From: Patescibacteria group bacterium | Lineage (GTDB): Bacteria > Patescibacteriota > Patescibacteriia > CAIXNZ01 | NCBI GenBank assembly: GCA_041651155.1 | Contig: JBAZJU010000001.1 | Span: 167,619 to 231,618, forward strand | Reading direction: 5' to 3' | Length of the DNA stretch: 64,000 nucleotides | Shown here: piece after piece, positions 44,385 to 60,297 of the stretch | Position numbering within the stretch: the first letter of the stretch is position 1 | Layout: each line of letters begins with the position of its first letter | Program-made: the position numbers and the translations under genes | The notes under the pieces: model-generated | Database searches by the model: none | The model's input: the letters and a program-made list of their open reading frames with translations, nothing else | Told to the model about the DNA's origin: nothing

Positions 44385-44528
44385 TGCTCCTGAAGGGAAT
44401 TGAACCCCCATCTCCAATTGTTTGAATTCCTTTTGTTTAGCCTATGTACACTTAGCTAAGCCGGGATCAAACAATCTCCCAGTTGGGAGGCGTGCCTAGC
44501 CGTTGTTTTGCCATTAAACTACAAGAGC
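44385..44528 (-). ncRNA. 144-nt tRNA-like gene: intact acceptor stem, D-arm and T-arm, anticodon arm replaced by ~85 nt folding into two hairpins
   Basis: 5' GCTCTTG-TA-GTTT-AATGGCA-AAAC .. 3' GGGGG-TTCAATT-CCCTT-CAGGAGC-A. Insert hairpins: ctccc-aact-gggag, and ttgtttga..tcaaacaa enclosing ttagc..gctaa. No canonical anticodon stem-loop found. Confidence 0.4.
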
Positions 44529-45683: not shown

Positions 45684-45701
45684 TGTATTTATTTTTTATT
45701 G

Positions 45702-45773
<72 letters not shown>

Positions 45774-45982
45774 ATGGTGATTAATGACAAATGATCAATA
45801 ATCAATAATCAAACAATTTTTAAATTCAAAATTCAAATGTTTAAACTTTGTGTAATTAGTAATATTTATTCAACAAAAATAAAAAAAGAACAAGGTTCTA
45901 TTATTGATATTATAGGGTAAAAATTAGGGAAAGTCAATGGTAGTTGGCGTTTTTTCATATTAAGAATTCATTAAATTTTCAA

Positions 45983-46011
45983 TTGACTTAGCGAGTTTTT
46001 GGGCGTAAAAT
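45983..46011 (+). promoter_or_regulatory. sigma70-like promoter (TTGACT-17-TAAAAT) upstream of the R-M cluster
   Basis: Hexamers and spacing read directly. Confidence 0.45.
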
Positions 46012-46274: not shown

Positions 46275-47156
46275 ATGGCTAAAAAAAATAAAAAATTTAC
46301 ATTTATAGACCTATTCGCTGGTATAGGCGGTTTTCATTTTGCTTTCCATAATTCAGGAGCAGAATGTGTTTTTGCAAGTGAGTGGGATAAATATGCAAGG
46401 CAAACTTATGAACGTAATTTCGCTAAAATTCAGCCCGAACTTTTTAAATCAGGAAATTTCGCAGGTGATATTACTAAGGTGAAACCAAAAAATATCCCCG
46501 ACTTTGATATAATTTGCGGCGGATTTCCGTGTCAGCCTTTCAGTCAGGCAGGATTCAAAAGAGGTTTTGAAGATAATAGAGGAAGCCTTTTTTTTCATAT
46601 AGCGGAATTAATCAGGAATAAGAAACCCAAGGCATTTTTTCTTGAAAATGTAAGGCATCTTTTTAAACATGATGACGGAAAAACATTTTCTGCAATAAAA
46701 AACGTAATTGAAAAAGATTTGGGTTATTCTTTTTATTATAAAATTGTTAAGGGCACAGATTTTAATGTTCCTCAACACAGGCCGCGTTTGTTTATGGTCG
46801 GTTTTAGAAATAAAAAAATCCCCTTTAATTTTCCTGAGCCGAAGAAACTAACAAAAACAATGTCTGATATCTTCGGTGCGCCATGTGAAAAAAATGTCGG
46901 TTATACTTTAAGAGTAGGCGGTCGGGGATCTGCTATAACCGATAGGCGAAATTGGGATTCTTATAAGGTAAACAGTAAAATTGTAAGATTAGGAGTTAAA
47001 GAAGGTAAAAAAATGATGGGGTTGCCTTACAATTTTGTTTTTCCCGTTTCTGATGCACAAGCAATGAAACAACTGGGAAATGCCGTTGTCGTACCTGCAA
47101 TAAGCGCTGTTGCACAAGAGATTATAAAGACATTAAATAAATATTATGCCGATTAA
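46275..47156 (+). CDS. DNA (cytosine-5)-methyltransferase
   Basis: Motif I FAGIGGF, IV GGFPCQPFSQAG, VI ENVRHL, VIII QHRPRLFMVGF, X LGNAVVVP; a short target-recognition domain implies a short recognition site. Confidence 0.9.
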   Translation: MAKKNKKFTFIDLFAGIGGFHFAFHNSGAECVFASEWDKYARQTYERNFAKIQPELFKSGNFAGDITKVKPKNIPDFDIICGGFPCQPFSQAGFKRGFEDNRGSLFFHIAELIRNKKPKAFFLENVRHLFKHDDGKTFSAIKNVIEKDLGYSFYYKIVKGTDFNVPQHRPRLFMVGFRNKKIPFNFPEPKKLTKTMSDIFGAPCEKNVGYTLRVGGRGSAITDRRNWDSYKVNSKIVRLGVKEGKKMMGLPYNFVFPVSDAQAMKQLGNAVVVPAISAVAQEIIKTLNKYYAD

Positions 47157-48234
47157 AGGTAATAAGGGGGAATGGAGCGAATTTTACGCTTTTATTAAAA
47201 TTTTAGCGGATAAATATTTACACGCCGCCGATGAAGACCTGAACGTTCTTGAGCAGGTCTTTTATCCCGTTTATAAAATAATCAGGGAAGAGGCTGCAGC
47301 AGGTAAAATAGAATTTGATATCAAGGCAGATACAGATAATATAAAAATTACGGACTCTTCTAATAATATTATGTTGGTTCATGTTACTGATCTTGATAAA
47401 AAGGCAAAGAAATTGTTTTCAGTCATAAAAAATTCAGATAAAAGGACATTCTCCATCCCTTTGGGAGCAGAGTTGATGGAAAAATTAAAATGTACTCAGA
47501 TAAAGGCCAATAGCGGAAGAAAATCAGATATAAAATTGTTAATACATGATTTTAGGTATGAACAGGATACAGAAGTAGGATTTAGCATTAAATCTCTGGT
47601 AGGCTCTCCCGCAACTCTTTTAAATGCGTCTGGATCTACTAATTTTGTTTATCGGGTTGAAAATATTTCCGATGTTGATGTTAAAGCAATTAATAATATT
47701 AAAACCAGGTCAAAAATAAAAGATCGATTGCAGGCAATTATTACGCGACATGGAAAGTTGTCTTTCACATCTTTAACATCTGATATTTTTGAACATAATT
47801 TAAGAAATATTGATACGATTTTACCTGAAATTTTATCCAATTTATTGTTGGCAAATTTTATGGGTCACGGTTCCTTACTTACTGAGTTAACTGAATATTT
47901 AGGAGCCAACGTTAATGAGTTAAGGGGATTTAGTCTTGATGAGACGGGATATAAAATTAAGTTAAAAAATTTTTTACATAATATAGCCTTGGGAATGATG
48001 CCTAATACTGAATGGGACGGATTATTGCAGGTTCATGGAGGTTATATAATAGTTAAAGAAAACGGTGAAATCGTATGTTATCATATTTTTAACCAGGATG
48101 AATTTCAGAATTATTTATTTAAAAATACGAGGCTGGATACGCCAAGTACTACCAGGCACGGATTTGGTGAAATATACAAAGAAGGAGAAAATTATTTTAT
48201 TAAACTTAATCTGCAGATTAGGTTTAATCACTAG
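47146..48234 (+). CDS. putative type II restriction endonuclease; HpaII-like is my from-memory guess at the family
   Basis: 11-nt overlap with the methyltransferase stop, followed by vsr; the N-terminus NKGEWSEFYAF resembles the HpaII REase family as I recall it. Confidence 0.5.
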   Translation: MPIKGNKGEWSEFYAFIKILADKYLHAADEDLNVLEQVFYPVYKIIREEAAAGKIEFDIKADTDNIKITDSSNNIMLVHVTDLDKKAKKLFSVIKNSDKRTFSIPLGAELMEKLKCTQIKANSGRKSDIKLLIHDFRYEQDTEVGFSIKSLVGSPATLLNASGSTNFVYRVENISDVDVKAINNIKTRSKIKDRLQAIITRHGKLSFTSLTSDIFEHNLRNIDTILPEILSNLLLANFMGHGSLLTELTEYLGANVNELRGFSLDETGYKIKLKNFLHNIALGMMPNTEWDGLLQVHGGYIIVKENGEIVCYHIFNQDEFQNYLFKNTRLDTPSTTRHGFGEIYKEGENYFIKLNLQIRFNH

Positions 48235-48237
48235 TTT

Positions 48238-48651
48238 ATGACTGATCGTATTACAAAAGAACAAAGATCCAGGAATATGTCCGCAGTTAAAGCCAAGGGA
48301 AACAAAACAACTGAAATTAAAGTAGTTAAATATTTTAAAAATAAAGGGATAACGGGCTGGAGAAGACATAATAAGAAAATATTCGGTAATCCGGACTTTG
48401 TCTTTTTAAAGGACAAAGTCGTTATATTTATTGACGGATGTTTTTGGCATGGTTGTCCTTACCATTATCATGTCCCGAAAACAAACAAAAAATTCTGGAA
48501 TGCAAAAATAAAGGCTAATAAAAAAAGGGGTAAAATCGTGAACAGCGTTTTAAGAAAAAACAATTGGACGGTTGTGAGAGTCTGGGAACATCAGCTAAAA
48601 AAAGATCAGCCATTTTATCTTGAGAAAATAAGAAAACTTTTACTAAAATAA
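48238..48651 (+). CDS. vsr: very-short-patch-repair endonuclease Vsr
   Basis: TKEQRSRNMSAVKAKGNKTTE..FVFLKDKVVIFIDGCFWHGCP. Confidence 0.85.
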   Translation: MTDRITKEQRSRNMSAVKAKGNKTTEIKVVKYFKNKGITGWRRHNKKIFGNPDFVFLKDKVVIFIDGCFWHGCPYHYHVPKTNKKFWNAKIKANKKRGKIVNSVLRKNNWTVVRVWEHQLKKDQPFYLEKIRKLLLK

Positions 48652-48711: not shown

Positions 48712-48742
48712 AGCGCCCCGCTCAGCATTACGGGGCATTTTT
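48712..48742. terminator. intrinsic terminator after vsr
   Basis: gccccg ctcagcatta cggggc followed by attttt. Confidence 0.65.
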
Positions 48743-48756
48743 AGATTAAAAATTGA

Positions 48757-48933
48757 TTAAATTTTTGCTTGACTTGGGAGCATGTAAAGAATAAAATTGA
48801 AGTAATGTTATTAAACAAAACTCCTGAATCCCGCGAGAAAAACAAGACCAGGATTGAGGCAGTGGATTATGAGATTGATAAGATGGTAAGTAAACTATAT
48901 GGTTTGAGTGAGAAAGATATGAAGATTATCTAG
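48757..48933 (+). pseudogene. C-terminal remnant of an N6-adenine methyltransferase with TaqI_C-type tail (type IIG / PglX / Eco57I-like)
   Basis: ..REKNKTRIEAVDYEIDKMVSKLYGLSEKDMKII* matches the conserved C-terminal pattern IDxLVYxLYGLTEEEIxIIE; no upstream catalytic domain is present. Confidence 0.45.
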
Positions 48934-48944
48934 GGAAAATTTTT

Positions 48945-51209
48945 ATGAAAATAAACTTAAATCAGAAGCAAAGAATAATTGTGGCAATTATATATCTAGC
49001 CATACTGTCTTTAATTTTTTATCTACTTGGTGGAAACTTAAAGCAATTAGCTTGGGACAGTAGTTATGACTCTAGTATTTGGTTTTATGCTGGAGCGTTT
49101 ATGATAATACTTGGGACTTATATCGTTGAACCATATTTCACTAAGCCTTCCGACGCAATAGCTAATTCAACGGCTATTCTTATAGCATTGTTTGGGCTAT
49201 CTGCAAAGCAAGATCTATTGGGATATTCTTTTATATTTTACTATGCTGTTAGCATCTTGATTCTGAGCATATTAACCATTTTCCTAAAAGACTCAAAGAA
49301 TATATTCTGGTTAAAATTTTCAAAGGTGACTTATTGGATTGTTGAAACATTCGGAACCTCAAAAGTAATTTTTTCTATTATATATTTATCTGCAAGTTAT
49401 TCATATTTCGCACAACAAAATAAAATAATCCCATTCATTAGTATCGTAGCTTTTTGGATTTGCTTAACTTTTTTTGATGTTATCAGTTTAATTGTTGAAA
49501 ACTTTTCAAGATTTATCAATTTAATTAAAAACAAACCTGGGGAGGAATTAGGCCAGGCTATTGGCTGTGAAAATCCGCTTCTTTATAAGGTGGAAATAGA
49601 TTATTTAAAGCATAAACCATGTGCGATAAAATATGGCGATTTAGTTGCCTTGGAAACATCTATCAATGTTGGCTCAATAGGTATGGTTGTAGATATACAG
49701 TATCTCTTAAACAAAAGATGGTTAAGTATATATCTTTTGCAAGACGAAAATGGCGACATTCTAGAAATAAATTTAAAAGATAAGAAATTGATAACGGAGC
49801 CAAAATCAATTTTTACAAAAGAAAATCTCGTATATCTTTTAGACATCTCTACAATTACAGATGAATCTCTGAAAACAAAAATTGGAAGTAACCCTCTATA
49901 CAAAAATAAAGAGCAATTTATTGGGTATGTTTCCAGCGGTTCAAACATAAATACACTAAATTTTTCAATTATCAGAGAAACAAACAAGCTCGAGCAGAAA
50001 ATTAGTGAAGGGGTGATTCTAAAAACTTTAATTTACGGACAAGAAACGCTTTATCAAGTTATAAATGGCAATGCAAAGGAAGAACAGCTTGAGAATTTTG
50101 ATCGACATGGTTTCATAATCGGCATCGCTAGAAAATTAGGCAAATACAAAAAAGACACTAAGGATTTAGATGTAAGTAAATGGATGCCTTCGAATTTCTC
50201 CCCACTTTTCTATGCATTTTCTGGTAGTGTTTCGGAAACGAGAGTAAAAGAAATTGCACAGAATTCTATTGGTCGTCTTCCTGATACGGATTTAGAAATT
50301 CCACTTAAAGATCCAAATGCTATTGTTACTCACAATACTGCGATTTTAGGAATTTTAGGAATAGGTAAGTCCTGCCTCACCTTTGAGATTATTAAGAAAA
50401 TAATTGCAAATACAGAAAGTAAGGTTATTTGTCTTGATATAACAAACGAATATTTTGATGAGCTTGTTGCTTATGGATGTGAACCCCAGATACTACCTGA
50501 CGTAGAGATCCAACTGGTATTAAATCCTAATTATGAAGCAATAAATAAAGACATTTACAAAGGCGGTAATCATGCCCAGTTTAGACAAAAAATAACTGAG
50601 TTGATTAAAACATTTTTTGACGGAGCAAATAAGCTATTGATTATAAATCCTGAGGTCTACGATGTTAGTAAGCAAACAAATGATGTAAAAGCAAAAAAAA
50701 TTGGTCCTGGCCCAAATGACTGGCAGGATCAAGCACCAATGGTAGATCTTACTTTGGTTGAGAAAACCAGAATTATAGCAGAAGTAATTTTAGAATATTC
50801 AAAAGGGAGGGGAAAATCCCAAAGTGCTAGATGTCTTTTAGTTTTTGAGGAAGCTCATTCCCTTGTTCCTGAATGGAACTCAGTCGCAAGCGAAGGTGAT
50901 AAAAGTGCTACAAATGGAACAGCTAAAGTTATATTGCAAGGTAGAAAATATGGCTTGGGAAGCATGGTTGTCACTCAAAGAACTGCGAATGTAAGTAAAA
51001 GCATCCTCAACCAATGCAACACAATTTTTGCTTTACGAGTTTTCGATGACACAGGAAAGGGATTTTTGGAAAATTATATTGGCAAGGATTATGCCGATAC
51101 TCTGGCAACTCTTGAGGAGAGACACGCTATTGCTATTGGCAAAGGGTTAAAATTAAAACAACCCGTTATAATCCAATTAAATAATAGAGAGGATATTATA
51201 GAGAATTAG
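48945..51209 (+). CDS. multi-TM membrane-anchored HerA/FtsK-like P-loop ATPase (DUF87-type)
   Basis: ~190-aa N-terminal region with 5-6 hydrophobic helices; Walker A AILGILGIGKS; Walker B / HerA-type LLVFEEAHSLVP; VVTQRTANVS. Confidence 0.6.
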   Translation: MKINLNQKQRIIVAIIYLAILSLIFYLLGGNLKQLAWDSSYDSSIWFYAGAFMIILGTYIVEPYFTKPSDAIANSTAILIALFGLSAKQDLLGYSFIFYYAVSILILSILTIFLKDSKNIFWLKFSKVTYWIVETFGTSKVIFSIIYLSASYSYFAQQNKIIPFISIVAFWICLTFFDVISLIVENFSRFINLIKNKPGEELGQAIGCENPLLYKVEIDYLKHKPCAIKYGDLVALETSINVGSIGMVVDIQYLLNKRWLSIYLLQDENGDILEINLKDKKLITEPKSIFTKENLVYLLDISTITDESLKTKIGSNPLYKNKEQFIGYVSSGSNINTLNFSIIRETNKLEQKISEGVILKTLIYGQETLYQVINGNAKEEQLENFDRHGFIIGIARKLGKYKKDTKDLDVSKWMPSNFSPLFYAFSGSVSETRVKEIAQNSIGRLPDTDLEIPLKDPNAIVTHNTAILGILGIGKSCLTFEIIKKIIANTESKVICLDITNEYFDELVAYGCEPQILPDVEIQLVLNPNYEAINKDIYKGGNHAQFRQKITELIKTFFDGANKLLIINPEVYDVSKQTNDVKAKKIGPGPNDWQDQAPMVDLTLVEKTRIIAEVILEYSKGRGKSQSARCLLVFEEAHSLVPEWNSVASEGDKSATNGTAKVILQGRKYGLGSMVVTQRTANVSKSILNQCNTIFALRVFDDTGKGFLENYIGKDYADTLATLEERHAIAIGKGLKLKQPVIIQLNNREDIIEN

Positions 51210-51253
51210 TATCTTTTGAAAGCAAGGTTAGATACATAAGAAATTCTTTTATT

Positions 51254-52642
51254 ATGAAACAAAAAGATGCTCTAGAAATTTTAAAGATGGGGTATAATGT
51301 TTACTTAACCGGAGCGGCCGGCAGCGGCAAAACTTATTTATTAAATAAGTACATTGAATATTTAAGGGGAAATAATATTCCCGTGGCCGTTACGGCTTCT
51401 ACTGGTATTGCAGCTACTCATATGAATGGACGTACTGTTCATTCGTGGTGTGGTATGGGTATAAACATGAAAATGAATAAGAGCCAGATTAGCGAATTAG
51501 CTGATAAAGACTATATCTATAGTAATATTACCAATACCAAGGTATTGATTATTGATGAAATTTCAATGCTTCATGCATCACAACTGGACTTGGTTAACAA
51601 TATCTGTAAAAATTTAAGAGATAATGATATTCCATTCGGCGGTATGCAGGTTATACTATGCGGTGATTTTTTTCAGTTACCTCCAGTTAGCAAGGGGAAT
51701 GATCTTGGAAAATTTATTACAGAATCAGATATCTGGAGTGAAATGGACTTAAAAGTTTGTTATTTATCTGAACAATACCGGCAAGATGACCATCAATTTA
51801 TTAAAATTTTAAAAAATGTAAGAGCCAATCAGGTCGATCAAGAAGCCTTAAAATTACTTAAAAGTAGAATAAACGCTGAAATCAAAACTGATTTACAAAT
51901 AACAAAATTATATTCGCACAATATCGATGTAGATCGAATTAATGATATGGAGCTGAATAAGATTTCCCAGGAACCGAAAGAATTTGAGATGCATAGTGAA
52001 GGCAAGAATCAGAAAATAATTGAAACCCTGAAGGGCTCCTGCCTGGCTCCAGAAAAATTAATATTGAAAAAAGGGGCTATGGTCATGTTTGTAAGGAATA
52101 ATTTTTCCAATGGTTATGTAAATGGAACCTTAGGTAAAGTAATTAACTTTGACGATGATACCGGCTGTCCTATCATTAAAACTTTTAAGGGCGATAGGAT
52201 TATTGCTTATCCCGAAACATGGAAAATTGAAGAAAATTATAATGTACTCGCCCAAATAAGCCAAATACCTCTTCGATTGGCATGGGCAATAACAATTCAC
52301 AAAAGTCAAGGTATGAGTTTGGATGTAGCTGAAATTGATTTAAGCAAATCTTTCGCTTACGGCATGGGATATGTTGCATTATCTAGAGTAAAATCTTTAT
52401 CAGGAATAATCCTTAAAGGTTTGAATGATATGGCTTTGAAAATTGATGAAAATATTTTAAGAATTGATAAAGATTTGATGGAAATGTCCCAAAATTTTTT
52501 AAAAGAATATCTATGTATGTCAAAGAAAGGTATTAAACAGATTCAGGATAATTTTATTAAAGAAAATGCCGAGATACCAGGGGATTGTGAAAATGAATAT
52601 TGTGATTGTGACGAAGTAAAGTTAGAAGATATCCCTTTTTAA
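51254..52642 (+). CDS. Pif1/RecD-family SF1B helicase
   Basis: Walker A LTGAAGSGKT; VTASTGIAATHMNGRTVHSW; LIIDEISML; ILCGDFFQLPPV; C-terminal ITIHKSQGMSLD. Confidence 0.75.
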   Translation: MKQKDALEILKMGYNVYLTGAAGSGKTYLLNKYIEYLRGNNIPVAVTASTGIAATHMNGRTVHSWCGMGINMKMNKSQISELADKDYIYSNITNTKVLIIDEISMLHASQLDLVNNICKNLRDNDIPFGGMQVILCGDFFQLPPVSKGNDLGKFITESDIWSEMDLKVCYLSEQYRQDDHQFIKILKNVRANQVDQEALKLLKSRINAEIKTDLQITKLYSHNIDVDRINDMELNKISQEPKEFEMHSEGKNQKIIETLKGSCLAPEKLILKKGAMVMFVRNNFSNGYVNGTLGKVINFDDDTGCPIIKTFKGDRIIAYPETWKIEENYNVLAQISQIPLRLAWAITIHKSQGMSLDVAEIDLSKSFAYGMGYVALSRVKSLSGIILKGLNDMALKIDENILRIDKDLMEMSQNFLKEYLCMSKKGIKQIQDNFIKENAEIPGDCENEYCDCDEVKLEDIPF

Positions 52643-52954
52643 AATATTTATCCTTACCAAATCCGATTTTTTAAAATACGCCTGATGTTACTGCTATTTG
52701 CACCCTATCAGTATTTAGACTTAAAATCTGACCGAATTTACACACAAATATTTAGTTTAGAAAAAATCGTCCCGTGCGCGGGGCGTTTTTTATTCTTGAC
52801 AAAATTAAATATCTATGAGAAGATTTCAATCAACAGCGTCTTAGCTTAAGTTGGCGGACAGCATCACCATTTTATGGCATTAAAAATTATAGAATGCCTT
52901 AATTACAATGGAGATGCATCCCCAACACAAAGCGTTTCTAGGCCGCTTTTTTAT

Positions 52955-53010: not shown

Positions 53011-53490
53011 ATGGACGTTAAGGAAATACCATGGAAGATCTTTGAAAAAATTTCCAGTAATTGCGGCATGGCAGCCCCAGCCTGGTCTTACAAAGGCAAG
53101 GACTACCAAGTGAGCCAGCTTCTTGATCCTGAAAAAAAGAAAGTGATTGGCTTTATGTGCTATCGCCAGGATAAAGAAGAGTGCTTTACCATCCTCTATT
53201 TCTGGTGGAAACTACCGGGAAAGGATGATACTAGCACAGAGCCAGCCCTGTTCATTAAAGCCGGGCCAGTTGATATCGGTGTTTGGGCCTTTGGGAAGGG
53301 CCGTCAAATGCAAGAAAGATTGGTTTTACACTTTCCTCATCGCGAAATTCCCGGAAGTTTGGCTTTAAACAGGCCCCTGGGCTTTGCCATAAGTTATGGC
53401 GCGGAATTGATCCAAGTGCACGACTGCAGAGGCGTGGAATTTTGGGAAAAAGACAGGTTTCCCGAAGGCATCTTCGTGACCCCGCCATAA
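53011..53490 (+). CDS. hypothetical protein
   Basis: Strong Shine-Dalgarno; no motif recognised. Confidence 0.4.
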   Translation: MDVKEIPWKIFEKISSNCGMAAPAWSYKGKDYQVSQLLDPEKKKVIGFMCYRQDKEECFTILYFWWKLPGKDDTSTEPALFIKAGPVDIGVWAFGKGRQMQERLVLHFPHREIPGSLALNRPLGFAISYGAELIQVHDCRGVEFWEKDRFPEGIFVTPP

Positions 53491-55774: not shown

Positions 55775-56365
55775 ATGCTAAAACAAAAATTGCCTGATTT
55801 AATTGCTTATTCGGTAATTCAACTGCCCAAGAAATTACCGCGAGAAATTACGAATAAGCCAGAAATATTATTTAAATTAGCCCAAGATTTATTGGCAAAG
55901 TGTGCCAATGACGCCATTATTTTACAGGGAAACGGGTCTTTGGAATTAGCCATGGCTATTTATTGGATGGCCAGAGTCGTTTTTTGGGAGATTGTCTGGC
56001 AGCCGGCTGAAAAAAAACCAGGTTTGATTGTTTATTCTGATTTTGAACCAGAGGAAATTATTCATCCGCACTTTATTTTAAAACCATTAATCTGGACAGA
56101 CAAAGAAATTAAAACTTTAAAAAAACAAAGAGCTAAAGATAAACAAACAGAAATCAGCCTTGATCTGGCCAAAACATGGGAGCAGGCCAAGATCAAGCAA
56201 AATCCTCTTAAGGCATTTTTGCGCCAACTTTATGCGATTGAGCCGGCCAAAAAGTCAGTGATCTTAAAAAACACTTGTCCGCTTGGGCCTGCGCTTTTTG
56301 CTTTTAAATGGTTTATAAATAGAGCCGAGAATGTTTATTACGAAAATATAAAATTTCAAATATGA
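55775..56365 (+). CDS. hypothetical protein, translationally coupled to the downstream helicase
   Basis: Its stop overlaps the start at 56362. Confidence 0.3.
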   Translation: MLKQKLPDLIAYSVIQLPKKLPREITNKPEILFKLAQDLLAKCANDAIILQGNGSLELAMAIYWMARVVFWEIVWQPAEKKPGLIVYSDFEPEEIIHPHFILKPLIWTDKEIKTLKKQRAKDKQTEISLDLAKTWEQAKIKQNPLKAFLRQLYAIEPAKKSVILKNTCPLGPALFAFKWFINRAENVYYENIKFQI

Positions 56366-59300
56366 TAAAAATTTCTTCGGAACTTTTAATTGAAGAAGAA
56401 GCTGAAAATCTGGCTGAAAAAATAGCTACTATTAATGGCGGAGTTGATTTGACTAAAGATGAAGATTTGGAAGCATATGCCAATAAATATCAGGAGAGAC
56501 TAAAGCAAATTATTGAATCTCAGCCTTTGCCAATCAAGGAGAAATTTGGGGAATTGGTTAACCGCTTGAGTAATGCCTTTAAATTGGACAAGGCTTTTTT
56601 GCTGCAAGGTGAAACAGGCTCGGGCAAATCCGTTTATTCACCCTTGGCAATTCTGGAAGCTTTAAAAATTTTGAATCTGCCAGAGAAAGTTGTGGTCATG
56701 CAGCCAAGGCGCGATGCCTGCCGCAATGTGGCCAGAGCCATAGCCGCCTTGACTGATTCAAACTTGGGCGGGGAAGTCGGTTTTTCTACTTCTGAAGAAA
56801 AAAAGTTTAATGACCAGACAAAAATCAGGGTGGTGACGCCCGGTATTTTTAACCAATATCTGGCCAACGGAGAATTGACCAAAGATAAAGTGGGCGCTGT
56901 TTTAATTGATGAAATGCACGAAGCCAGCAGCGAGTATCATTTGGCTATTGGCTTGCTGAAATTATTACAACAGGCGCATCATGCGCCACAAATCATGCTG
57001 ACTAGTGCAACTATCAATAAGGAGCAGATACTGAATTTTTTTCAGATTGATAGCCATGAATATTTAAATGTCAGTGGCCGTTCTTTCCCGGTCAACCGTC
57101 ATTATTCTGAGCAGGTTAATTATGAAAAAGATACTGATTATTTTTTTGAGATAAATAACATAGCAAAAAAGATATGTTCATCGGGTGAAAGCGGGGATAT
57201 CCTGGTTTTTTTGCCGGGTCTTTATGAAATTAATGAAATGGCCGATGACTTGAGCAAATTGCCAGAGGTTGAAGTGTTAAAATTGCACAGCACGCTTAGT
57301 CCGGCTGAAAGAGATAATGTGATTATGGGTAAAAATGGCAAAAAAGGCCCTCGCCGCATAATTTTAAGCACTAATATAGCCGAAACATCTGTGACTGTGC
57401 CCGGCATAAAATTTGTCATTGATTCTGGCCGGCAAAGGTCTGTAAGTTATAATCCAAATTTGGGCATAAACGATTTTGTGACTGAATATATTTCCAAGGA
57501 CCAAGTCGCCCAAAGAGCCGGCAGAGCCGGACGGCTTGAGCCAGGTGAATATTTTTCGGTTTTAAGTGAAGATGACTATGATCAATTGGCAGAGCATCCA
57601 AAAGCCGCGATTCATAAAGAAAACCTGGCGCATTTTGTGCTGGTGCTTAAATCAATGGGTATTAGTCCTGAAGAATTTCCTTTTATAGATCCACCAGCCA
57701 AAGATAAGCTTAAAGCGGCTGAAGATGAGCTGCAGATTTTGGGAGTTTTTGACGAGCAGGGGAAAATAAGCGCTATTGGCAAAGAAATGATGGAATTATC
57801 TCTGTCTTTTGAACCCAGAATGGCCAGGATGATAATTGAAGCCAGGAAATTAGGTTGTTTGAACGAGACTTTAATCATGGCGGCTTTTGACAGAGAGCGT
57901 TCATTATTCACTTTGCCCAGCCAGGAGGATGAGAAAAAATATGGCAGCCGTAAAATGGCCAATGTGCATTATCAGGAAATGCGTGCAAAATTTAACAGTG
58001 GCGGTTCTGATTATTTCCGTTCGTTAAATGTTTTTAAAGAGGCTTTGGAAAAAGGCTTGCTTGAAGCACACCACTGGGATAAATCTCAAGAAGGCCAGGC
58101 AATTTATGAAGATTTTATAAGTTGGTGCGATGATTACAGAATTTCAGCCAAAGCTTTAAAACGCATTGCCTTTGATGTAAAAAAATATCTTAAATATTTG
58201 GGACAAAACGAACCAAACCTAGAGAATATTTTAAAAACCAAGCCAAGACTTTTTGACGAGTCAGTAAAAACATTGGATCTTGATGAAAATAGCCTTTCCA
58301 AAGTTTTATTGTCAGGGTTTCCAGACAGGCTAATGCATCAAGTCAGTTTCAGGCCGCCGACTTTTGCCAGCCTGGGGAATAAAGAATTGGACAGGATTTT
58401 TATTTCGCCCGGGTCTGCAGCCTTTTCAAGTTCTGGTTTGGATTTTAGCTTGGGCTCTATTACGTACAATGAACGCTCTGAAAAAAATTATGCTGCCAAT
58501 ATCCATCCCTTGAATATTAAAGCGCTTTATGAAGCCAGGCCGGAATTATTTGCGGACAGGAAGCCGCCTAGGTTACTTTTTGACCCCAGAACAGGAGGCG
58601 TGTCGCAAATTAAATTTTTAAGCCTTAAAGATAAGCCGGAAATTATTGCGGGTGAAATTGAATTGCCCACAAACGGTCCTGAGGCAGAAGAAATTATTAA
58701 ACATTTTCCCAGGCAGATAAAATTGGATTCGGTTGAATGCCAGGTGCATTATTTTTTTGAAATATTCGGATCAGAAGAATTAACTGCCAAAGTTATCGTG
58801 CCGCCTGGTAATATTTTTGGGATAAAAGAATTTTCTTTGCCCGAGCTGGGTACAAAAGACCAGAAAGTTTCCGTCAGATTTGCTTCAAGTGAAGATAGCC
58901 CGGCAATATTTTTTAGTCTGGACTCTCTGAAATATAAAGTTGAAGAAGATTTGCTCCATGAAAAATGGAAAAAATGGGACAATGAAAATAATAAGGGAAA
59001 AAATATTTTTATAAATAATGAGGACAGCCTGCCTGAAGTTGAGCAATTAGGCTTCAAACCAAAAGTCTATGCCATGGATCAGCAGGGAAATGAGCATTAT
59101 GCCTATCCTGCAGTAGTTTTGGCAGGCTTGGATTTATTACAGCCCAAGCAAAATTTGAAAGTAACATATTTTCAGACTGAAGAACAAGCACAAAGCGCGC
59201 AAAGCCGGGCTTTGGCTCAATGGCAGGAATTTGGCTTTAACCTGGGGAGGATCAAAAAGAGCAAAGAACTGGCCACCAAATACAAATCAAGTTTTGATTT

Positions 59301-60297
59301 GGTTAGGGATATTAATGAAAAATTAGAAAAAATGGAAATGAAAGAGACTTCTGATTTAGGACAAGAGGCAAAGTACTTGGAGCAAGAGCTGCTTAATGAT
59401 ACTATGAGAAATTCAGAAAAAAGCATTGAAAGTACGACTGTTTTATTAAAGAGATTAAAACATGCAATTGAGGTCAAAGAAAATGACAATAAATTGAAGG
59501 GAAAATACGCCGCTGAGTGGCAGGATATTCTCGGCCAATATCAAAAAATGCAAGCTGAACATTCCTCTGTTCCATTTTATAATTCCCAATGGCGCAAGCT
59601 CATAGAAAAAATTGATCTTGTAGTGAGTGGCGATTATGATTTTGAACAGAGCCTAAAAAAAGCCATTGAGCTGGAAGCTGAATCAGCCAAGCCGGAATTG
59701 ATCCAATTTTTACCTGCGGAATTTATAAGCGGCTTTAAAGGCAGAAAAGAGGCTTTGGAAAAGATGCTGGCCGAAGTTAAGGCTTTTAGAACAGGCCCGA
59801 AAAAAGAAAAACCAAAAGCTAAAGAGTTGACACCCGAACAAATGGAGCAGGAATTGAAGGAGGAAATGGAATTTTATGACATTATTTTACAGGAGCAGCT
59901 GCGCGATAAAAATTACTTGACAGCCGGAATTAATCTGGAAAAGCGCCAGAAAAATTTAGGCATTCTAAAGGATCAACGCAAAGAATTAAATTCCATCAGA
60001 AATGATTTAGGCAAAATTACGCTCAACAGCTCAAAGAGCAAATTTGGCGCAATCAGGCGTTCTATTGATAAAGCTGTTTCCGAATTAGCCAAGCAAACGA
60101 ATTATAATCCAAAATGGCCGGCAGTTTATACCGCTATTACCGATGAATACGTCCCTCAGCTGGAAGAATTTTTAGGCCAGAAATTTGAAGCCTCGGACTT
60201 AAAACGTAATTTTGAGAAGCTGGTTGCTGTAGCTAAAAATCCATATTTATCTGCAAATGATATTAAAAAACAAGTTGAAGATATTTTAACTTCTTAA
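56362..60297 (+). CDS. DEAH-box (HrpA/HrpB-like) helicase with ~600-aa coiled-coil/low-complexity C-terminal extension
   Basis: Motif I GETGSGKS, II DEMHE, III TSAT, V TNIAETSVT, VI QRAGRAGR. Confidence 0.8.
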   Translation: MIKISSELLIEEEAENLAEKIATINGGVDLTKDEDLEAYANKYQERLKQIIESQPLPIKEKFGELVNRLSNAFKLDKAFLLQGETGSGKSVYSPLAILEALKILNLPEKVVVMQPRRDACRNVARAIAALTDSNLGGEVGFSTSEEKKFNDQTKIRVVTPGIFNQYLANGELTKDKVGAVLIDEMHEASSEYHLAIGLLKLLQQAHHAPQIMLTSATINKEQILNFFQIDSHEYLNVSGRSFPVNRHYSEQVNYEKDTDYFFEINNIAKKICSSGESGDILVFLPGLYEINEMADDLSKLPEVEVLKLHSTLSPAERDNVIMGKNGKKGPRRIILSTNIAETSVTVPGIKFVIDSGRQRSVSYNPNLGINDFVTEYISKDQVAQRAGRAGRLEPGEYFSVLSEDDYDQLAEHPKAAIHKENLAHFVLVLKSMGISPEEFPFIDPPAKDKLKAAEDELQILGVFDEQGKISAIGKEMMELSLSFEPRMARMIIEARKLGCLNETLIMAAFDRERSLFTLPSQEDEKKYGSRKMANVHYQEMRAKFNSGGSDYFRSLNVFKEALEKGLLEAHHWDKSQEGQAIYEDFISWCDDYRISAKALKRIAFDVKKYLKYLGQNEPNLENILKTKPRLFDESVKTLDLDENSLSKVLLSGFPDRLMHQVSFRPPTFASLGNKELDRIFISPGSAAFSSSGLDFSLGSITYNERSEKNYAANIHPLNIKALYEARPELFADRKPPRLLFDPRTGGVSQIKFLSLKDKPEIIAGEIELPTNGPEAEEIIKHFPRQIKLDSVECQVHYFFEIFGSEELTAKVIVPPGNIFGIKEFSLPELGTKDQKVSVRFASSEDSPAIFFSLDSLKYKVEEDLLHEKWKKWDNENNKGKNIFINNEDSLPEVEQLGFKPKVYAMDQQGNEHYAYPAVVLAGLDLLQPKQNLKVTYFQTEEQAQSAQSRALAQWQEFGFNLGRIKKSKELATKYKSSFDLVRDINEKLEKMEMKETSDLGQEAKYLEQELLNDTMRNSEKSIESTTVLLKRLKHAIEVKENDNKLKGKYAAEWQDILGQYQKMQAEHSSVPFYNSQWRKLIEKIDLVVSGDYDFEQSLKKAIELEAESAKPELIQFLPAEFISGFKGRKEALEKMLAEVKAFRTGPKKEKPKAKELTPEQMEQELKEEMEFYDIILQEQLRDKNYLTAGINLEKRQKNLGILKDQRKELNSIRNDLGKITLNSSKSKFGAIRRSIDKAVSELAKQTNYNPKWPAVYTAITDEYVPQLEEFLGQKFEASDLKRNFEKLVAVAKNPYLSANDIKKQVEDILTS

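What the first reader, a model, noticed from the sequence alone, without database searches (positions are those of the whole stretch)
48945..52642. Membrane-anchored HerA/FtsK-like ATPase plus Pif1-family helicase pair beside an R-M/vsr cluster: candidate uncharacterised defence or DNA-translocation module
The gene pair:
- Two co-directional genes, 45 bp apart, encode a 754-aa protein and a 462-aa protein.
- The 754-aa protein has an N-terminal ~190 aa with 5-6 hydrophobic helices. Its C-terminus is a P-loop ATPase with Walker A GILGIGKS and the HerA/DUF87-style LLVFEEAHSLVP motif.
- The 462-aa protein is an SF1B Pif1/RecD-type helicase with all core motifs.

Genomic context:
- Immediately upstream are a complete C5-methyltransferase / putative REase / vsr cluster and the C-terminal stump of an older N6-adenine methyltransferase.
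- tRNA-Gln lies ~3 kb further upstream.
- That layout is typical of a defence island where systems are gained and eroded.

Interpretation:
- HerA-like ATPases partnered with a second nucleic-acid enzyme are a recurring architecture in anti-phage systems, but I do not recognise this combination (multi-TM HerA-like + Pif1) as a named system.
- Alternative reading: the remains of a conjugative coupling protein plus helicase, or a membrane-phage packaging ATPase plus replicative helicase.
Basis: partly seen in the sequence, partly recalled or inferred. Interest (0 to 1): 0.78.

Follow-up and report, generated by a model that had tools for sequence, protein, structure and literature searches.

The report
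Membrane-anchored HerA ATPase riding restriction-modification operons
The two genes exist as described, but they are not a conserved pair: the membrane-anchored HerA ATPase is a widespread, uncharacterised single-gene cassette found inside restriction-modification operons and other defence hot spots in many phyla, and the Pif1 helicase beside it is an occasional neighbour.

Summary
Observation confirmed. ORF 48945-51209 encodes a 754-aa protein with a ~6-TM N-domain, a HAS-barrel and a HerA-type ATPase. ORF 51254-52642 encodes a Pif1 helicase. Upstream lie M.HpaII/R.HpaII/Vsr and a methylase stump.

- Among 88 loci with full-length TM-HerA homologues, Pif1 is adjacent in 3 (window, L007, L081).
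- The closest TM-HerA relatives (78, 74 and 71% identity) lack it.
- None of 80 loci carrying Pif1 homologues (48-58% identity) has TM-HerA.

TM-HerA instead recurs as a single-gene insertion in or at the end of R-M operons. The contexts are type I, C5/Vsr type II, IIG, III, and between hmaA and hmaB of the Hma system. 28 of 80 loci have a DNA methylase within three genes, against 2 of 72 control loci. It was not found in the phage collections and occurs full-length on one plasmid.

Best reading: a stand-alone, defence-associated HerA variant whose fused membrane domain occupies the place of the Sir2, DUF4297 or NurA partner. The function is inferred from context only.

In Patescibacteria there is a looser link to DNA-end-processing genes (Pif1, Cas4-like PDDEXK_1, DUF2779, ExoVII). 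This leaves a minority reading in which they cooperate.

Verdict: new variant of a known kind; moderate interest.

The parts
48945..51209 (+). TM-HerA gene (754 aa): membrane domain aa 1-195, HAS-barrel/beta-rich region about aa 200-440, HerA RecA-like ATPase about aa 441-754
   Evidence: ORF. Pfam DUF87 and PADLOC HerA. AF2 model pLDDT 73. Foldseek top hits are SIR2-HerA, DUF4297-HerA, HerA-NurA and Sulfolobus HerA, E 2e-15 to 1e-12.
48945..49529 (+). N-terminal multi-helix membrane domain (aa 1-195), with conserved loop motif EPYFTKPSDAIANS
50349..50372 (+). Walker A GILGIGKS (aa 469-476)
   Evidence: Read from the translation. G469-S476 are invariant in alignment A1.
50835..50870 (+). Walker B / HerA motif LLVFEEAHSLVP (aa 631-642)
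   Evidence: Read from the translation. V633, E635, E636, A637, H638, L640 and P642 are invariant.
51254..52642 (+). Pif1-family SF1B helicase (462 aa) with an SSB-tail-like acidic C-terminus ...EDIPF. Neighbour of TM-HerA, not a conserved partner.
   Evidence: Pfam PIF1 2e-39 and Pif1_2B. More than 8000 homologues, mostly Patescibacteria. C-terminal tail. Adjacent to TM-HerA in only 3 of 88 loci.
48769..48797 (+). Promoter-like site TTGACT-17-TAAAAT upstream of the stump and HerA
   Evidence: Consensus scan, 10/12 matches. This is a pattern match only.
52768..52785 (+). Terminator-like GC hairpin plus T-run, 125 nt after the Pif1 stop. None lies between HerA and Pif1.
   Evidence: sequence read.
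48817..48933 (+). Remnant of the C-terminus of a type IIG (Eco57I/MmeI-like) R-M enzyme, ...IDKMVSKLYGLSEKDMKII*. Its stop codon lies 11 nt before the HerA start codon.
   Evidence: Sequence. blastx to the C-termini of intact IIG enzymes that lie directly upstream of TM-HerA in L057 (E 4e-4) and L041 (E 6e-3). The same C-terminal motif lies just upstream of HerA in L041, L057 and L060.
46275..48651 (+). Type II R-M cassette: C5 methylase (46275-47156), HpaII-family endonuclease (47146-48234), Vsr (48238-48651)
   Evidence: Pfam 4e-80, 4e-110 and 2e-20. PADLOC MTase_II, REase_II and Vsr. The same order, C5 MTase - R.HpaII - Vsr - TM-HerA, occurs in L005.
48715..48742 (+). Terminator-like hairpin GCCCCG-(10 nt)-CGGGGC plus T-run after vsr. 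It would separate the R-M transcript from HerA-Pif1.
   Evidence: Read directly from the sequence.
45952..45989 (+). First copy of a 38-nt direct repeat. The second copy is at 48738-48775 (82% identity). The two copies bracket the R-M cassette.
   Evidence: the repeat finder family D1.

Best explanation
**What the genes are.** The 754-aa gene belongs to a coherent, horizontally mobile family of membrane-anchored HerA ATPases (TM-HerA). About six N-terminal membrane helices are fused by a linker of six residues or fewer to the HAS-barrel and HerA RecA-like ATPase. The family behaves as a self-contained single-gene cassette. It lodges inside or at the 3' end of R-M operons and in other known defence hot spots. 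The Pif1 gene belongs to the very large Patescibacterial Pif1 family. It is probably co-transcribed with TM-HerA here, but it is not a conserved partner.

**History of this locus (inferred).** A type IIG R-M enzyme once lay directly upstream of TM-HerA, as it still does in L041 and L057. That gene eroded to a stump. An HpaII-type R-M/Vsr cassette bracketed by 38-nt repeats now lies upstream.

**Proposed mechanism (inferred, not shown).**
- TM-HerA forms a hexameric ring held against the inner face of the membrane.
- DNA (ends or invading DNA) threads into the ring and stimulates the ATPase.
- The fused membrane domain sits on the HAS-barrel face, where NurA, Sir2 or DUF4297 dock in characterised HerA systems. 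It would act as the effector, for example by permeabilising the membrane (abortive infection), or it would confine the translocase to DNA entering at the membrane.

**Sub-probabilities.**
- TM-HerA is a stand-alone, defence-associated cassette and the pair is not a unit: about 0.7.
- The membrane domain is the effector: about 0.3.
For: **Family coherence**
- 799 word-index homologues are full-length at 48-80% identity across Patescibacteria, Bacteroidota, Acidobacteriota and other phyla.
- The N-terminal 440 residues alone find 454 50%-identity cluster representatives, nearly all about 700-780 aa with the same layout.
- The fold is HerA.
- ATPase motifs are invariant and the membrane domain is as conserved as the rest of the protein.

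**Single-gene embedding with overlapping or <=10-nt gaps (Pfam)**
- Mod-HerA-Res in L048 and L052.
- HsdS-HerA-HsdR in L063.
- hsdM/S ... SLATT-HerA-AlbA_2-HsdR in L032 and on the Arcobacter plasmid.
- HmaA-HerA-HmaB in L080 and L072 (PADLOC 3e-174, 3e-108, 5e-92). This is the hot spot reported to hold Septu, PARIS and Ppl (PMC11232893).

**Terminal position in R-M operons**
- Mod-Res-HerA in L001, L002 and L020.
- HsdR-HsdMS-HerA in L015 and L030.
- IIG-HerA in L006, L041, L057 and L060.
- C5 MTase-REase-Vsr-HerA in the window, L005 and L173-175.

**Enrichment and other context**
- 28 of 80 TM-HerA loci have a DNA methylase within three genes. Only 2 of 72 control (Pif1) loci hit the same R-M seeds within five genes.
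- Other neighbours include Shedu, McrBC, GmrSD, Cap4-STAND, an RT and RhuM.
- Large serine recombinases lie within six genes in 14 of 80 loci.

**Pair not conserved:**

**Likely co-transcription in this window:** 44-nt gap, no terminator between the genes, and a hairpin terminator after Pif1.
Against: - A defence role rests only on genomic context. No experiment exists, and no paper describing this family was found in five full-text searches of the held library; the 2004 FtsK-HerA survey is not in that library.
- About 50 of 80 loci show no methylase within three genes by my seed searches. Many of these are short contigs or have unannotated neighbours.
- In Patescibacteria, 15 of 88 loci place TM-HerA next to DNA-end-processing genes (Pif1, Cas4-like PDDEXK_1, DUF2779, RecB-like, ExoVII). 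Some overlap by a few nucleotides; for example L176 PDDEXK_1 overlaps HerA by 4 nt. This is far above chance and could mean a functional partnership rather than a stand-alone gene.
- The three HerA-Pif1 adjacencies look independent. HerA/Pif1 identities to the window are 60/53% in L007 and 28/67% in L081. Independent origin argues for some selective or hot-spot reason.
Confidence: 0.55

Rival explanations
1. TM-HerA and Pif1 form a real functional module in Patescibacteria, together with a Cas4-like PDDEXK_1 or DUF2779 nuclease. It would be a membrane-tethered helicase/translocase-nuclease machine that processes DNA ends, for example shredding restriction fragments as RecBCD does in E. coli. 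Which partner gene lies adjacent would vary between genomes.
For: - HerA-Pif1 are adjacent, co-directional and 4-44 nt apart in three loci that look independent: the window, L007 and L081.
- Closest Pif1 relatives: P0124 (67% identity, L081) lies beside both DUF2779 and a distant TM-HerA; P0122 (72% identity, L082/L083) lies beside DUF2779 only.
- PDDEXK_1 overlaps Pif1 in L167. The same nuclease family (51-68% identity) lies directly beside TM-HerA in L002, L030, L061, L065 and L176.
- 15 of 88 TM-HerA loci have one of these genes within three genes. My rough chance expectation is about 2%.
- HerA-NurA is an established translocase-nuclease precedent.
- There is no terminator between HerA and Pif1 in the window.
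Against: - Pif1 is absent beside TM-HerA in 85 of 88 loci, including the closest relatives at 71-78% identity.
- 0 of 80 Pif1 loci carry TM-HerA or DUF2779.
- TM-HerA occurs as a single inserted gene between R-M subunits, with no room for a partner.
- The nuclease and helicase neighbours resemble ordinary copies found in housekeeping contexts. L167 lies near dnaG and rpoD.
- The window holds no PDDEXK_1, DUF2779 or xseA gene.
- Outside Patescibacteria the link disappears.
Confidence: 0.2
2. TM-HerA is a membrane DNA pump for DNA transfer or uptake, similar to FtsK/SpoIIIE or Streptomyces TraB. Its position next to R-M genes would be incidental to residence on mobile islands.
For: - It combines a membrane anchor with a ring-translocase fold.
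- Serine recombinases lie nearby in 14 of 80 loci.
- One locus (L176) has T4SS-like genes within 3 kb on the opposite strand.
- Identity is high across phyla, which implies frequent horizontal transfer.
Against: - There are no Pfam FtsK_SpoIIIE or TraG/VirD4 hits. The best structural matches are all HerA.
- No relaxase or T4SS families appear among the top neighbour families.
- Only one full-length copy occurs among 72,556 plasmids, and it sits inside a type I R-M operon on a plasmid typed non-mobilizable.
- Insertion between mod and res, hsdS and hsdR, or hmaA and hmaB is the behaviour of defence cargo, not of transfer genes.
Confidence: 0.08
3. The gene is a housekeeping FtsK-type division protein, a type IV coupling protein remnant, or a PRD1-type phage packaging ATPase. 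Pif1 would then be the associated replicative or transfer helicase.
For: - P-loop ATPases of this superfamily share motifs.
- Some homologues carry a precomputed AAA_10 (PF12846) hit.
- PHROG 2666 'terminase large subunit' gives a weak partial hit, E 5e-9, over 74 residues.
Against: - The distribution is patchy and horizontally transferred, with variable neighbours.
- No match was found in 50,697 phage records or in 2.9 million viral contigs.
- The fold is HerA.
- There is no gamma domain and no FtsK Pfam match.
Confidence: 0.02

Closest known systems
SIR2-HerA (Nezha / Gao19) and DUF4297-HerA anti-phage systems
   Same: - HerA-type ATPase with a HAS-barrel.
- Best sequence matches in PDB (8wiv, 9c1m, 8xau) and best structural matches (8wj3, 8zir, 8xaw).
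- Best NCBIfam and PADLOC models are anti-phage HerA.
- Defence-island setting.
   Different: - No Sir2 or DUF4297 partner gene.
- A ~195-aa multi-helix membrane domain is fused to the N-terminus of HerA itself, making it a single-gene unit.
- Scores are far below the curated family cut-offs (64 bits against 800).
- Sequence matches to PADLOC, NCBIfam and PDB HerA cover mainly the C-terminal ATPase region.
HerA-NurA DNA end-resection complex (archaea, Deinococcus)
   Same: - HerA fold (4d2i and 9x1m among the Foldseek hits).
- In Patescibacteria the gene often lies next to a nuclease or helicase, which recalls a translocase-nuclease pairing.
   Different: - No NurA, Mre11 or Rad50 operon. SbcCD-like genes lie nearby only in one pair of near-identical loci.
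- Membrane anchored.
- Embedded in R-M operons.
- Patchy, horizontally transferred distribution.
Cargo genes of R-M and Hma hot spots (PrrC/RloC in type I hsd loci; Septu, PARIS and Ppl between hmaA and hmaBC, PMC11232893)
   Same: - Same genomic behaviour: a self-contained gene inserted between subunit genes of a larger restriction-type system.
   Different: - Unrelated protein families.
- PrrC is known to be held in check by its R-M partner. No such link is shown here, and the R-M types flanking TM-HerA are too varied for one specific protein contact.
FtsK/SpoIIIE and Streptomyces TraB membrane DNA translocases
   Same: - N-terminal membrane domain followed by a ring ATPase of the FtsK-HerA superfamily.
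   Different: - HerA clade rather than FtsK clade by Pfam and fold.
- Very short linker.
- No gamma domain.
- Not in division or conjugation contexts.
Bacterial and phage Pif1/Dda-like SF1B helicases (for the 462-aa protein)
   Same: - Pfam PIF1 and Pif1_2B.
- PHROG Dda-like helicase.
- 439 phage records carry homologues, up to 51% identity.
   Different: - Carries an SSB-C-terminus-like acidic ...EDIPF tail, shared by about 17% of sampled family members.

Membership tests
HerA clade of the FtsK-HerA superfamily | P-loop RecA-like ATPase with a DUF87/HerA central domain and Walker A/B motifs | tested here: met
   Pfam PF01935 at 34.9 bits against a cut-off of 23.2. The motifs are invariant in the family alignment.
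HerA clade of the FtsK-HerA superfamily | HAS-barrel domain N-terminal to the ATPase; overall HerA fold | tested here: met
   AF2 predicts a beta-rich region at aa 200-430. Foldseek aligns about 500-600 columns to HerA chains, E 2e-15 to 1e-12 and probability 1.00. TM-scores are modest (0.3-0.65) because the model also contains the membrane domain.
HerA clade of the FtsK-HerA superfamily | Hexameric ring that translocates DNA | not testable with these tools
   No multimer prediction or biochemistry was available.
SIR2-HerA / DUF4297-HerA defence systems | Adjacent Sir2 or DUF4297 effector gene | tested here: not met
   Neighbours in the window are Vsr and Pif1. Among 101 upstream neighbours of homologues only 2 carry SIR2_2, and DUF4297 is not among the top families.
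SIR2-HerA / DUF4297-HerA defence systems | Score above the curated NCBIfam 'anti-phage-associated HerA' cut-off | tested here: not met
   NF042943 scores 64 bits against a cut-off of 800. NF042944 scores 59.5 against 850.
HerA-NurA repair system | NurA nuclease (with or without Mre11/Rad50) encoded alongside | tested here: not met
   No NurA appears among the top neighbour families. NCBIfam helicase_HerA scores 44.9 bits against a cut-off of 970.
FtsK/SpoIIIE | FtsK_SpoIIIE ATPase domain and gamma domain; conserved division context | tested here: not met
   No such Pfam hit at E <= 0.01. Neighbourhoods are variable and island-like.
Type IV coupling protein (VirD4/TraG/TraD) | TraG/TrwB-type domain with relaxase and T4SS genes nearby | tested here: not met
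   No such Pfam hit in the window protein. T4SS genes were seen near only one locus, L176. There is one full-length plasmid copy, on a plasmid typed non-mobilizable.
PRD1-type / membrane-phage packaging ATPase | Encoded in phage genomes | tested here: not met
   0 hits in 50,697 phage records by tblastn. No confirmed hit in the pattern-based scan of 2.9 million viral contigs.
Pif1 family SF1B helicase (462-aa protein) | PIF1 helicase domain plus 2B/SH3-like domain, above Pfam cut-offs | tested here: met
   PF05970 at 135.9 bits (cut-off 25.9). PF21530 at 37.3 bits (cut-off 23.9).
   3 of 88 TM-HerA loci. 0 of 80 Pif1 loci. The closest HerA relatives lack Pif1.
Type II R-M with Vsr (context genes) | C5 methylase, cognate endonuclease and Vsr mismatch endonuclease | tested here: met
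   Pfam DNA_methylase 4e-80, RE_HpaII 4e-110, Vsr 2e-20.

The most novel reading that the evidence does not exclude
TM-HerA is a membrane-tethered DNA translocase that cooperates with whichever restriction system it rides with. It would catch DNA ends at the site of DNA entry or after restriction cleavage and reel them in. In Patescibacteria, which I recall (not checked here) generally lack RecBCD/AddAB, it would hand those ends to Pif1 and Cas4-like/DUF2779 nucleases. That would make it a RecBCD-like 'clean-up' arm of restriction, kept away from the chromosome by its location at the membrane.
Probability: 0.15. Interest if true: 0.8.

Novelty: new variant of a known kind. Interest (0 to 1): 0.5.

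Why it matters
HerA-based immunity is currently known as two-gene systems, in which HerA activates a soluble Sir2 or DUF4297 effector. This family has several hundred 50%-identity clusters spread over many phyla. In it, HerA is fused to a conserved membrane domain and travels alone inside R-M operons.

If it defends, it would be a third, single-protein branch of HerA immunity with a membrane output. It would also be a compact candidate for testing how HerA rings sense infection.

The family is also a clean example of R-M operons and the Hma locus acting as landing pads for defence cargo. The Patescibacterial link to Pif1 and Cas4-like nucleases points to a possible end-processing pathway in organisms whose DNA repair is poorly understood.

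For the scan itself, the result corrects the unit of interest. It is one gene, not the pair.

Tried and rejected
1. **Pair conservation.** tblastn of the window Pif1 against 80 TM-HerA genome loci found it in only L007.
2. **Neighbour clustering by blastp.** No partner family is shared by more than 14 of 80 loci. The largest cluster is a serine recombinase at variable positions.
3. **First metagenome scan with the single Pif1 protein.** Nothing was found. The repeat with an alignment gave 80 loci, none with TM-HerA.
4. **Synteny search for an empty site.** Window flanking genes show no conserved order around Pif1 elsewhere, so insertion boundaries could not be defined.
5. **Composition.** The five island genes, including Pif1, are about 1 SD below the window mean in GC and GC3 but within range. 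This does not decide whether Pif1 is native.
6. **tRNA-Gln as attachment site.** The island lies on the 5' side of the minus-strand tRNA and no tRNA-derived repeat was found. Only a 38-nt repeat brackets the R-M cassette.
8. **Literature.** Five full-text searches found no paper describing this family; a sixth, for the rlo genes of Campylobacter type I loci, led only to PARIS-type proteins. The 2004 FtsK-HerA survey is not in the searchable library.
9. **Phage, plasmid and viral searches for TM-HerA.** These were negative or nearly so.
10. **HmaC identity.** HmaC is a DUF499 ATPase, not TM-HerA. TM-HerA is cargo within Hma, not a component of it.

Full report
**1. Observation**

The window holds two co-directional ORFs, 48945-51209 (754 aa) and 51254-52642 (462 aa), separated by 44 nt.

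The 754-aa protein:
- It matches Pfam DUF87/HerA central domain above threshold.
- It matches nine PADLOC HerA models, with E down to 9e-28.
- By sequence it matches solved HerA chains from SIR2-HerA, DUF4297-HerA and Sulfolobus.
- The Walker A (GILGIGKS) and LLVFEEAHSLVP motifs are present. They are invariant in a 20-member alignment spanning 48-78% identity.

AF2 models, one of the full protein and one of residues 1-205, have pLDDT 73 and 80. They show eight helices in residues 7-195. A beta strand follows after a break of six residues or fewer, then a beta-rich region to about residue 430 and an alpha/beta ATPase. Hydropathy gives four to six clearly membrane-spanning segments. Foldseek against the PDB returns only HerA chains at the top (8wj3, 8wiv, 8xaw, 9x1m, 8zir, 4d2i, TdpAB 8wet), with E 2e-15 to 1e-12.

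The 462-aa protein is a Pif1-family SF1B helicase: PIF1 2e-39, Pif1_2B, and PHROG Dda-like helicase 3e-69.

Upstream context:
- C5 methylase, HpaII-family endonuclease and Vsr.
- tRNA-Gln at 45701-45773.
- A short remnant at 48817-48933. Its translation...IDKMVSKLYGLSEKDMKII*, is the characteristic C-terminal end of type IIG R-M enzymes.

**2. Is the pair a unit?**

I took 80 genome loci encoding full-length relatives of the 754-aa protein. They are 33-71% identical and come from Patescibacteria, Bacteroidota, Clostridia, Chloroflexota, Campylobacterota, Planctomycetota, Actinomycetota and others. Only one, L007 from a Nomurabacteria MAG, has a Pif1 homologue beside it.

The closest relatives in metagenomes carry other neighbours:
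- P0003 (78% identity): DUF4268 downstream, with a divergent EcoRII-C/Vsr/C5-methylase set upstream.
- P0005 (74%): preceded by C5 methylase, a SacI-like endonuclease and Vsr.
- P0007 (71%): preceded by GmrSD_N, a methylase and three unknown genes, and followed by MazE.

From the Pif1 side, the helicase belongs to a very large family. More than 8000 hits saturated the search, and they are mostly Patescibacteria at 50-60% identity. None of 80 metagenome loci carrying members at 48-58% identity has TM-HerA or DUF2779 within 6 kb.

In this window the two genes probably share a transcript:
- No terminator-like site lies in the 44-nt spacer.
- A strong hairpin plus T-run follows Pif1 at 52768-52785.
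- A terminator-like hairpin and a promoter-like site separate vsr from HerA.

**3. What TM-HerA is associated with**

Clustering and Pfam/PADLOC annotation of neighbours show one recurrent theme: R-M genes of every type, usually co-directional and with overlapping or very short gaps.

Embedded as a single gene between subunits:
- Mod-HerA-Res in L048 and L052.
- HsdS-HerA-HsdR in L063.
- hsdM/hsdS ... SLATT-HerA-AlbA_2-HsdR in L032 and on the only full-length plasmid hit, Arcobacter p121.
- HmaA-HerA-HmaB(-HmaC) in L080 and L072. This is the interval reported as a hot spot for Septu, PARIS and Ppl insertions (PMC11232893).

At the 3' end of an R-M operon:
- Mod-Res-HerA in L001, L002 and L020.
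- HsdR-HsdMS-HerA in L015, L030 and L177.
- Type IIG-HerA in L006, L041, L057 and L060.
- C5 methylase-endonuclease-Vsr-HerA in the window, L005 and L173-175.

By seed-based phmmer, 28 of 80 TM-HerA loci have a DNA methylase within three genes. In the 72 usable control loci centred on Pif1, only 2 of 544 neighbouring ORFs (those within five genes), one in each of 2 loci, hit the same R-M seeds.

Further neighbours are Shedu (4 loci), McrBC, GmrSD, a Cap4-STAND protein, a reverse transcriptase, RhuM and toxin-antitoxin genes. Large serine recombinases lie within six genes in 14 loci.

TM-HerA was not found in 50,697 phage records by tblastn, and a pattern-based scan of 2.9 million viral contigs gave no confirmed hit.

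The window itself records turnover. The IIG stump ends 11 nt before the HerA start, exactly where intact IIG genes sit in L041 and L057. The HpaII cassette upstream is bracketed by a 38-nt direct repeat.

**4. The Patescibacterial twist**

The three closest Pif1 relatives tell a more nuanced story.
- P0124 (67% identity, Buchananbacteria, L081) lies in the array GmrSD - 145 aa - DUF2779 - DUF87 - PIF1 - ... - HEPN_AbiU2.
- That DUF87 is a distant member of the TM-HerA family: 28% identity over residues 4-746, with six hydrophobic helices and the same EPYYTSP loop motif.
- P0122 (72%) is followed by DUF2779. P0123 (also 72%) was not looked up.
- P0142 (56%) is overlapped by a 250-aa Cas4-like PDDEXK_1 nuclease in a housekeeping setting near dnaG and rpoD.

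The same PDDEXK_1 family (51-68% identity) sits directly beside TM-HerA in L002, L030, L061, L065 and L176. DUF2779 does so in L001, L006, L020 and L081. A RecB-like nuclease does in L015. xseA/xseB do in L027, L030 and L176.

In all, 15 of 88 TM-HerA loci have one of these DNA-end-processing genes within three genes, and nearly all of those loci are Patescibacteria-like. That is far above the roughly 2% I estimate for single-copy genes in genomes of about 1000 genes.

The three HerA-Pif1 adjacencies do not look co-inherited. HerA/Pif1 identities to the window are 60/53% for L007 and 28/67% for L081. L011 carries the same serine-recombinase island as L007 but lacks Pif1 after HerA.

I cannot decide between two explanations: a hot spot next to these genes, or a loose functional partnership. 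The second is kept as the main rival.

**5. Mechanism**

Shown:
- HerA fold.
- Intact, invariant ATPase motifs.
- A conserved membrane domain: 17 invariant positions in 205, including R10, E62 and N74.
- Direct fusion of that domain to the first strand of the HAS-barrel.

Inferred from established HerA structures (HerA-NurA, SIR2-HerA, DUF4297-HerA): the partner protein docks on the HAS-barrel face of the hexamer. A domain fused to the N-terminus of the HAS-barrel should therefore occupy that face.

So TM-HerA looks like a HerA system whose partner has been replaced by a built-in membrane module. The most economical model has three steps:
- A ring is held at the inner membrane face.
- Its ATPase is stimulated by DNA.
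- Its output is membrane damage, or capture of DNA at the entry site.

**6. Comparison with known systems and novelty**

The family is a member of the HerA clade by domain and fold. It fails the defining features of:
- SIR2-HerA and DUF4297-HerA: no such partner gene, and far below the curated cut-offs.
- HerA-NurA.
- FtsK/SpoIIIE.
- Type IV coupling proteins.
- Phage packaging ATPases.

PADLOC v2 has no specific model for it. Five full-text searches of the held library found no paper describing it. I classify it as a new variant of a known kind, namely HerA-based, defence-associated ATPases. The Pif1 gene is an ordinary member of its family apart from the SSB-like tail.

**7. Verdict**

The finding as framed, a two-gene module, is not supported. 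The underlying gene is a real, widespread, uncharacterised candidate defence gene with a clear and testable genomic signature.
- Interest: 0.5.
- The most novel reading still open is a membrane-tethered translocase that cooperates with restriction and, in Patescibacteria, with Pif1 and Cas4-like nucleases. I give it about 0.15.

Noticed in passing
window 52600-52642 (C-terminus of Pif1): The Pif1 protein ends in an acidic stretch plus ...EDIPF, which resembles the C-terminal tail of bacterial SSB (DDDIPF, from my own knowledge). 33 of 193 sampled family members end in IPF, LPF or MPF. These include all three HerA-adjacent copies, and also copies in housekeeping contexts.
   Followed up: partly
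window 48817-48933: Remnant of a type IIG R-M enzyme C-terminus directly upstream of HerA. Intact IIG genes occupy the same position in L041, L057, L060 and L006. This implies an older IIG-HerA unit whose R-M gene decayed.
   Followed up: yes
window 45952-45989 and 48738-48775: A 38-nt direct repeat (82% identity) brackets the M.HpaII/R.HpaII/Vsr cassette. Each copy follows a terminator-like hairpin and contains a TTGACT promoter-like hexamer. It may be a footprint of cassette insertion or of promoter duplication.
   Followed up: no
L167 6249-8386; also L120, L155, L168: In Patescibacteria a 250-aa Cas4-like PDDEXK_1 nuclease gene overlaps or adjoins the Pif1 gene in otherwise housekeeping neighbourhoods. 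This may be a helicase-nuclease pair.
   Followed up: partly
L072 6559-20789 and L080 6436-19438: Complete Hma systems (HmaA, HmaB, HmaC by PADLOC) carry TM-HerA between hmaA and hmaB. In L072 a TIR-like protein also sits between hmaB and hmaC.
   Followed up: yes
L030, L027, L176, L010, L044: xseA/xseB (exonuclease VII) lie within three genes of TM-HerA in five loci. In L176 TM-HerA sits between PDDEXK_1 and xseA.
   Followed up: partly
L007 9500-9928 and L011 9591-9950: A small multi-helix membrane protein (119-142 aa) lies directly upstream of TM-HerA in two related serine-recombinase islands. Its function is unknown.
   Followed up: no
window 44385-44528 (minus strand): Rfam reports a 144-nt tRNA match (39 bits, above the gathering score) that ARAGORN did not call. 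It may be an intron-containing or otherwise interrupted tRNA.
   Followed up: no
window 53011-53490: A 159-aa ORF has unusually high GC for this window (0.47; GC3 0.52). It has no hit in Pfam, NCBIfam, PHROGs or PADLOC. It follows a 368-nt spacer that contains two terminator-like hairpins.
   Followed up: no
window 56362-60297: A 1311-aa DEAH/HrpA-like helicase (DEAD, Helicase_C, HA2 domains) has a long C-terminal extension without domain hits.
   Followed up: no
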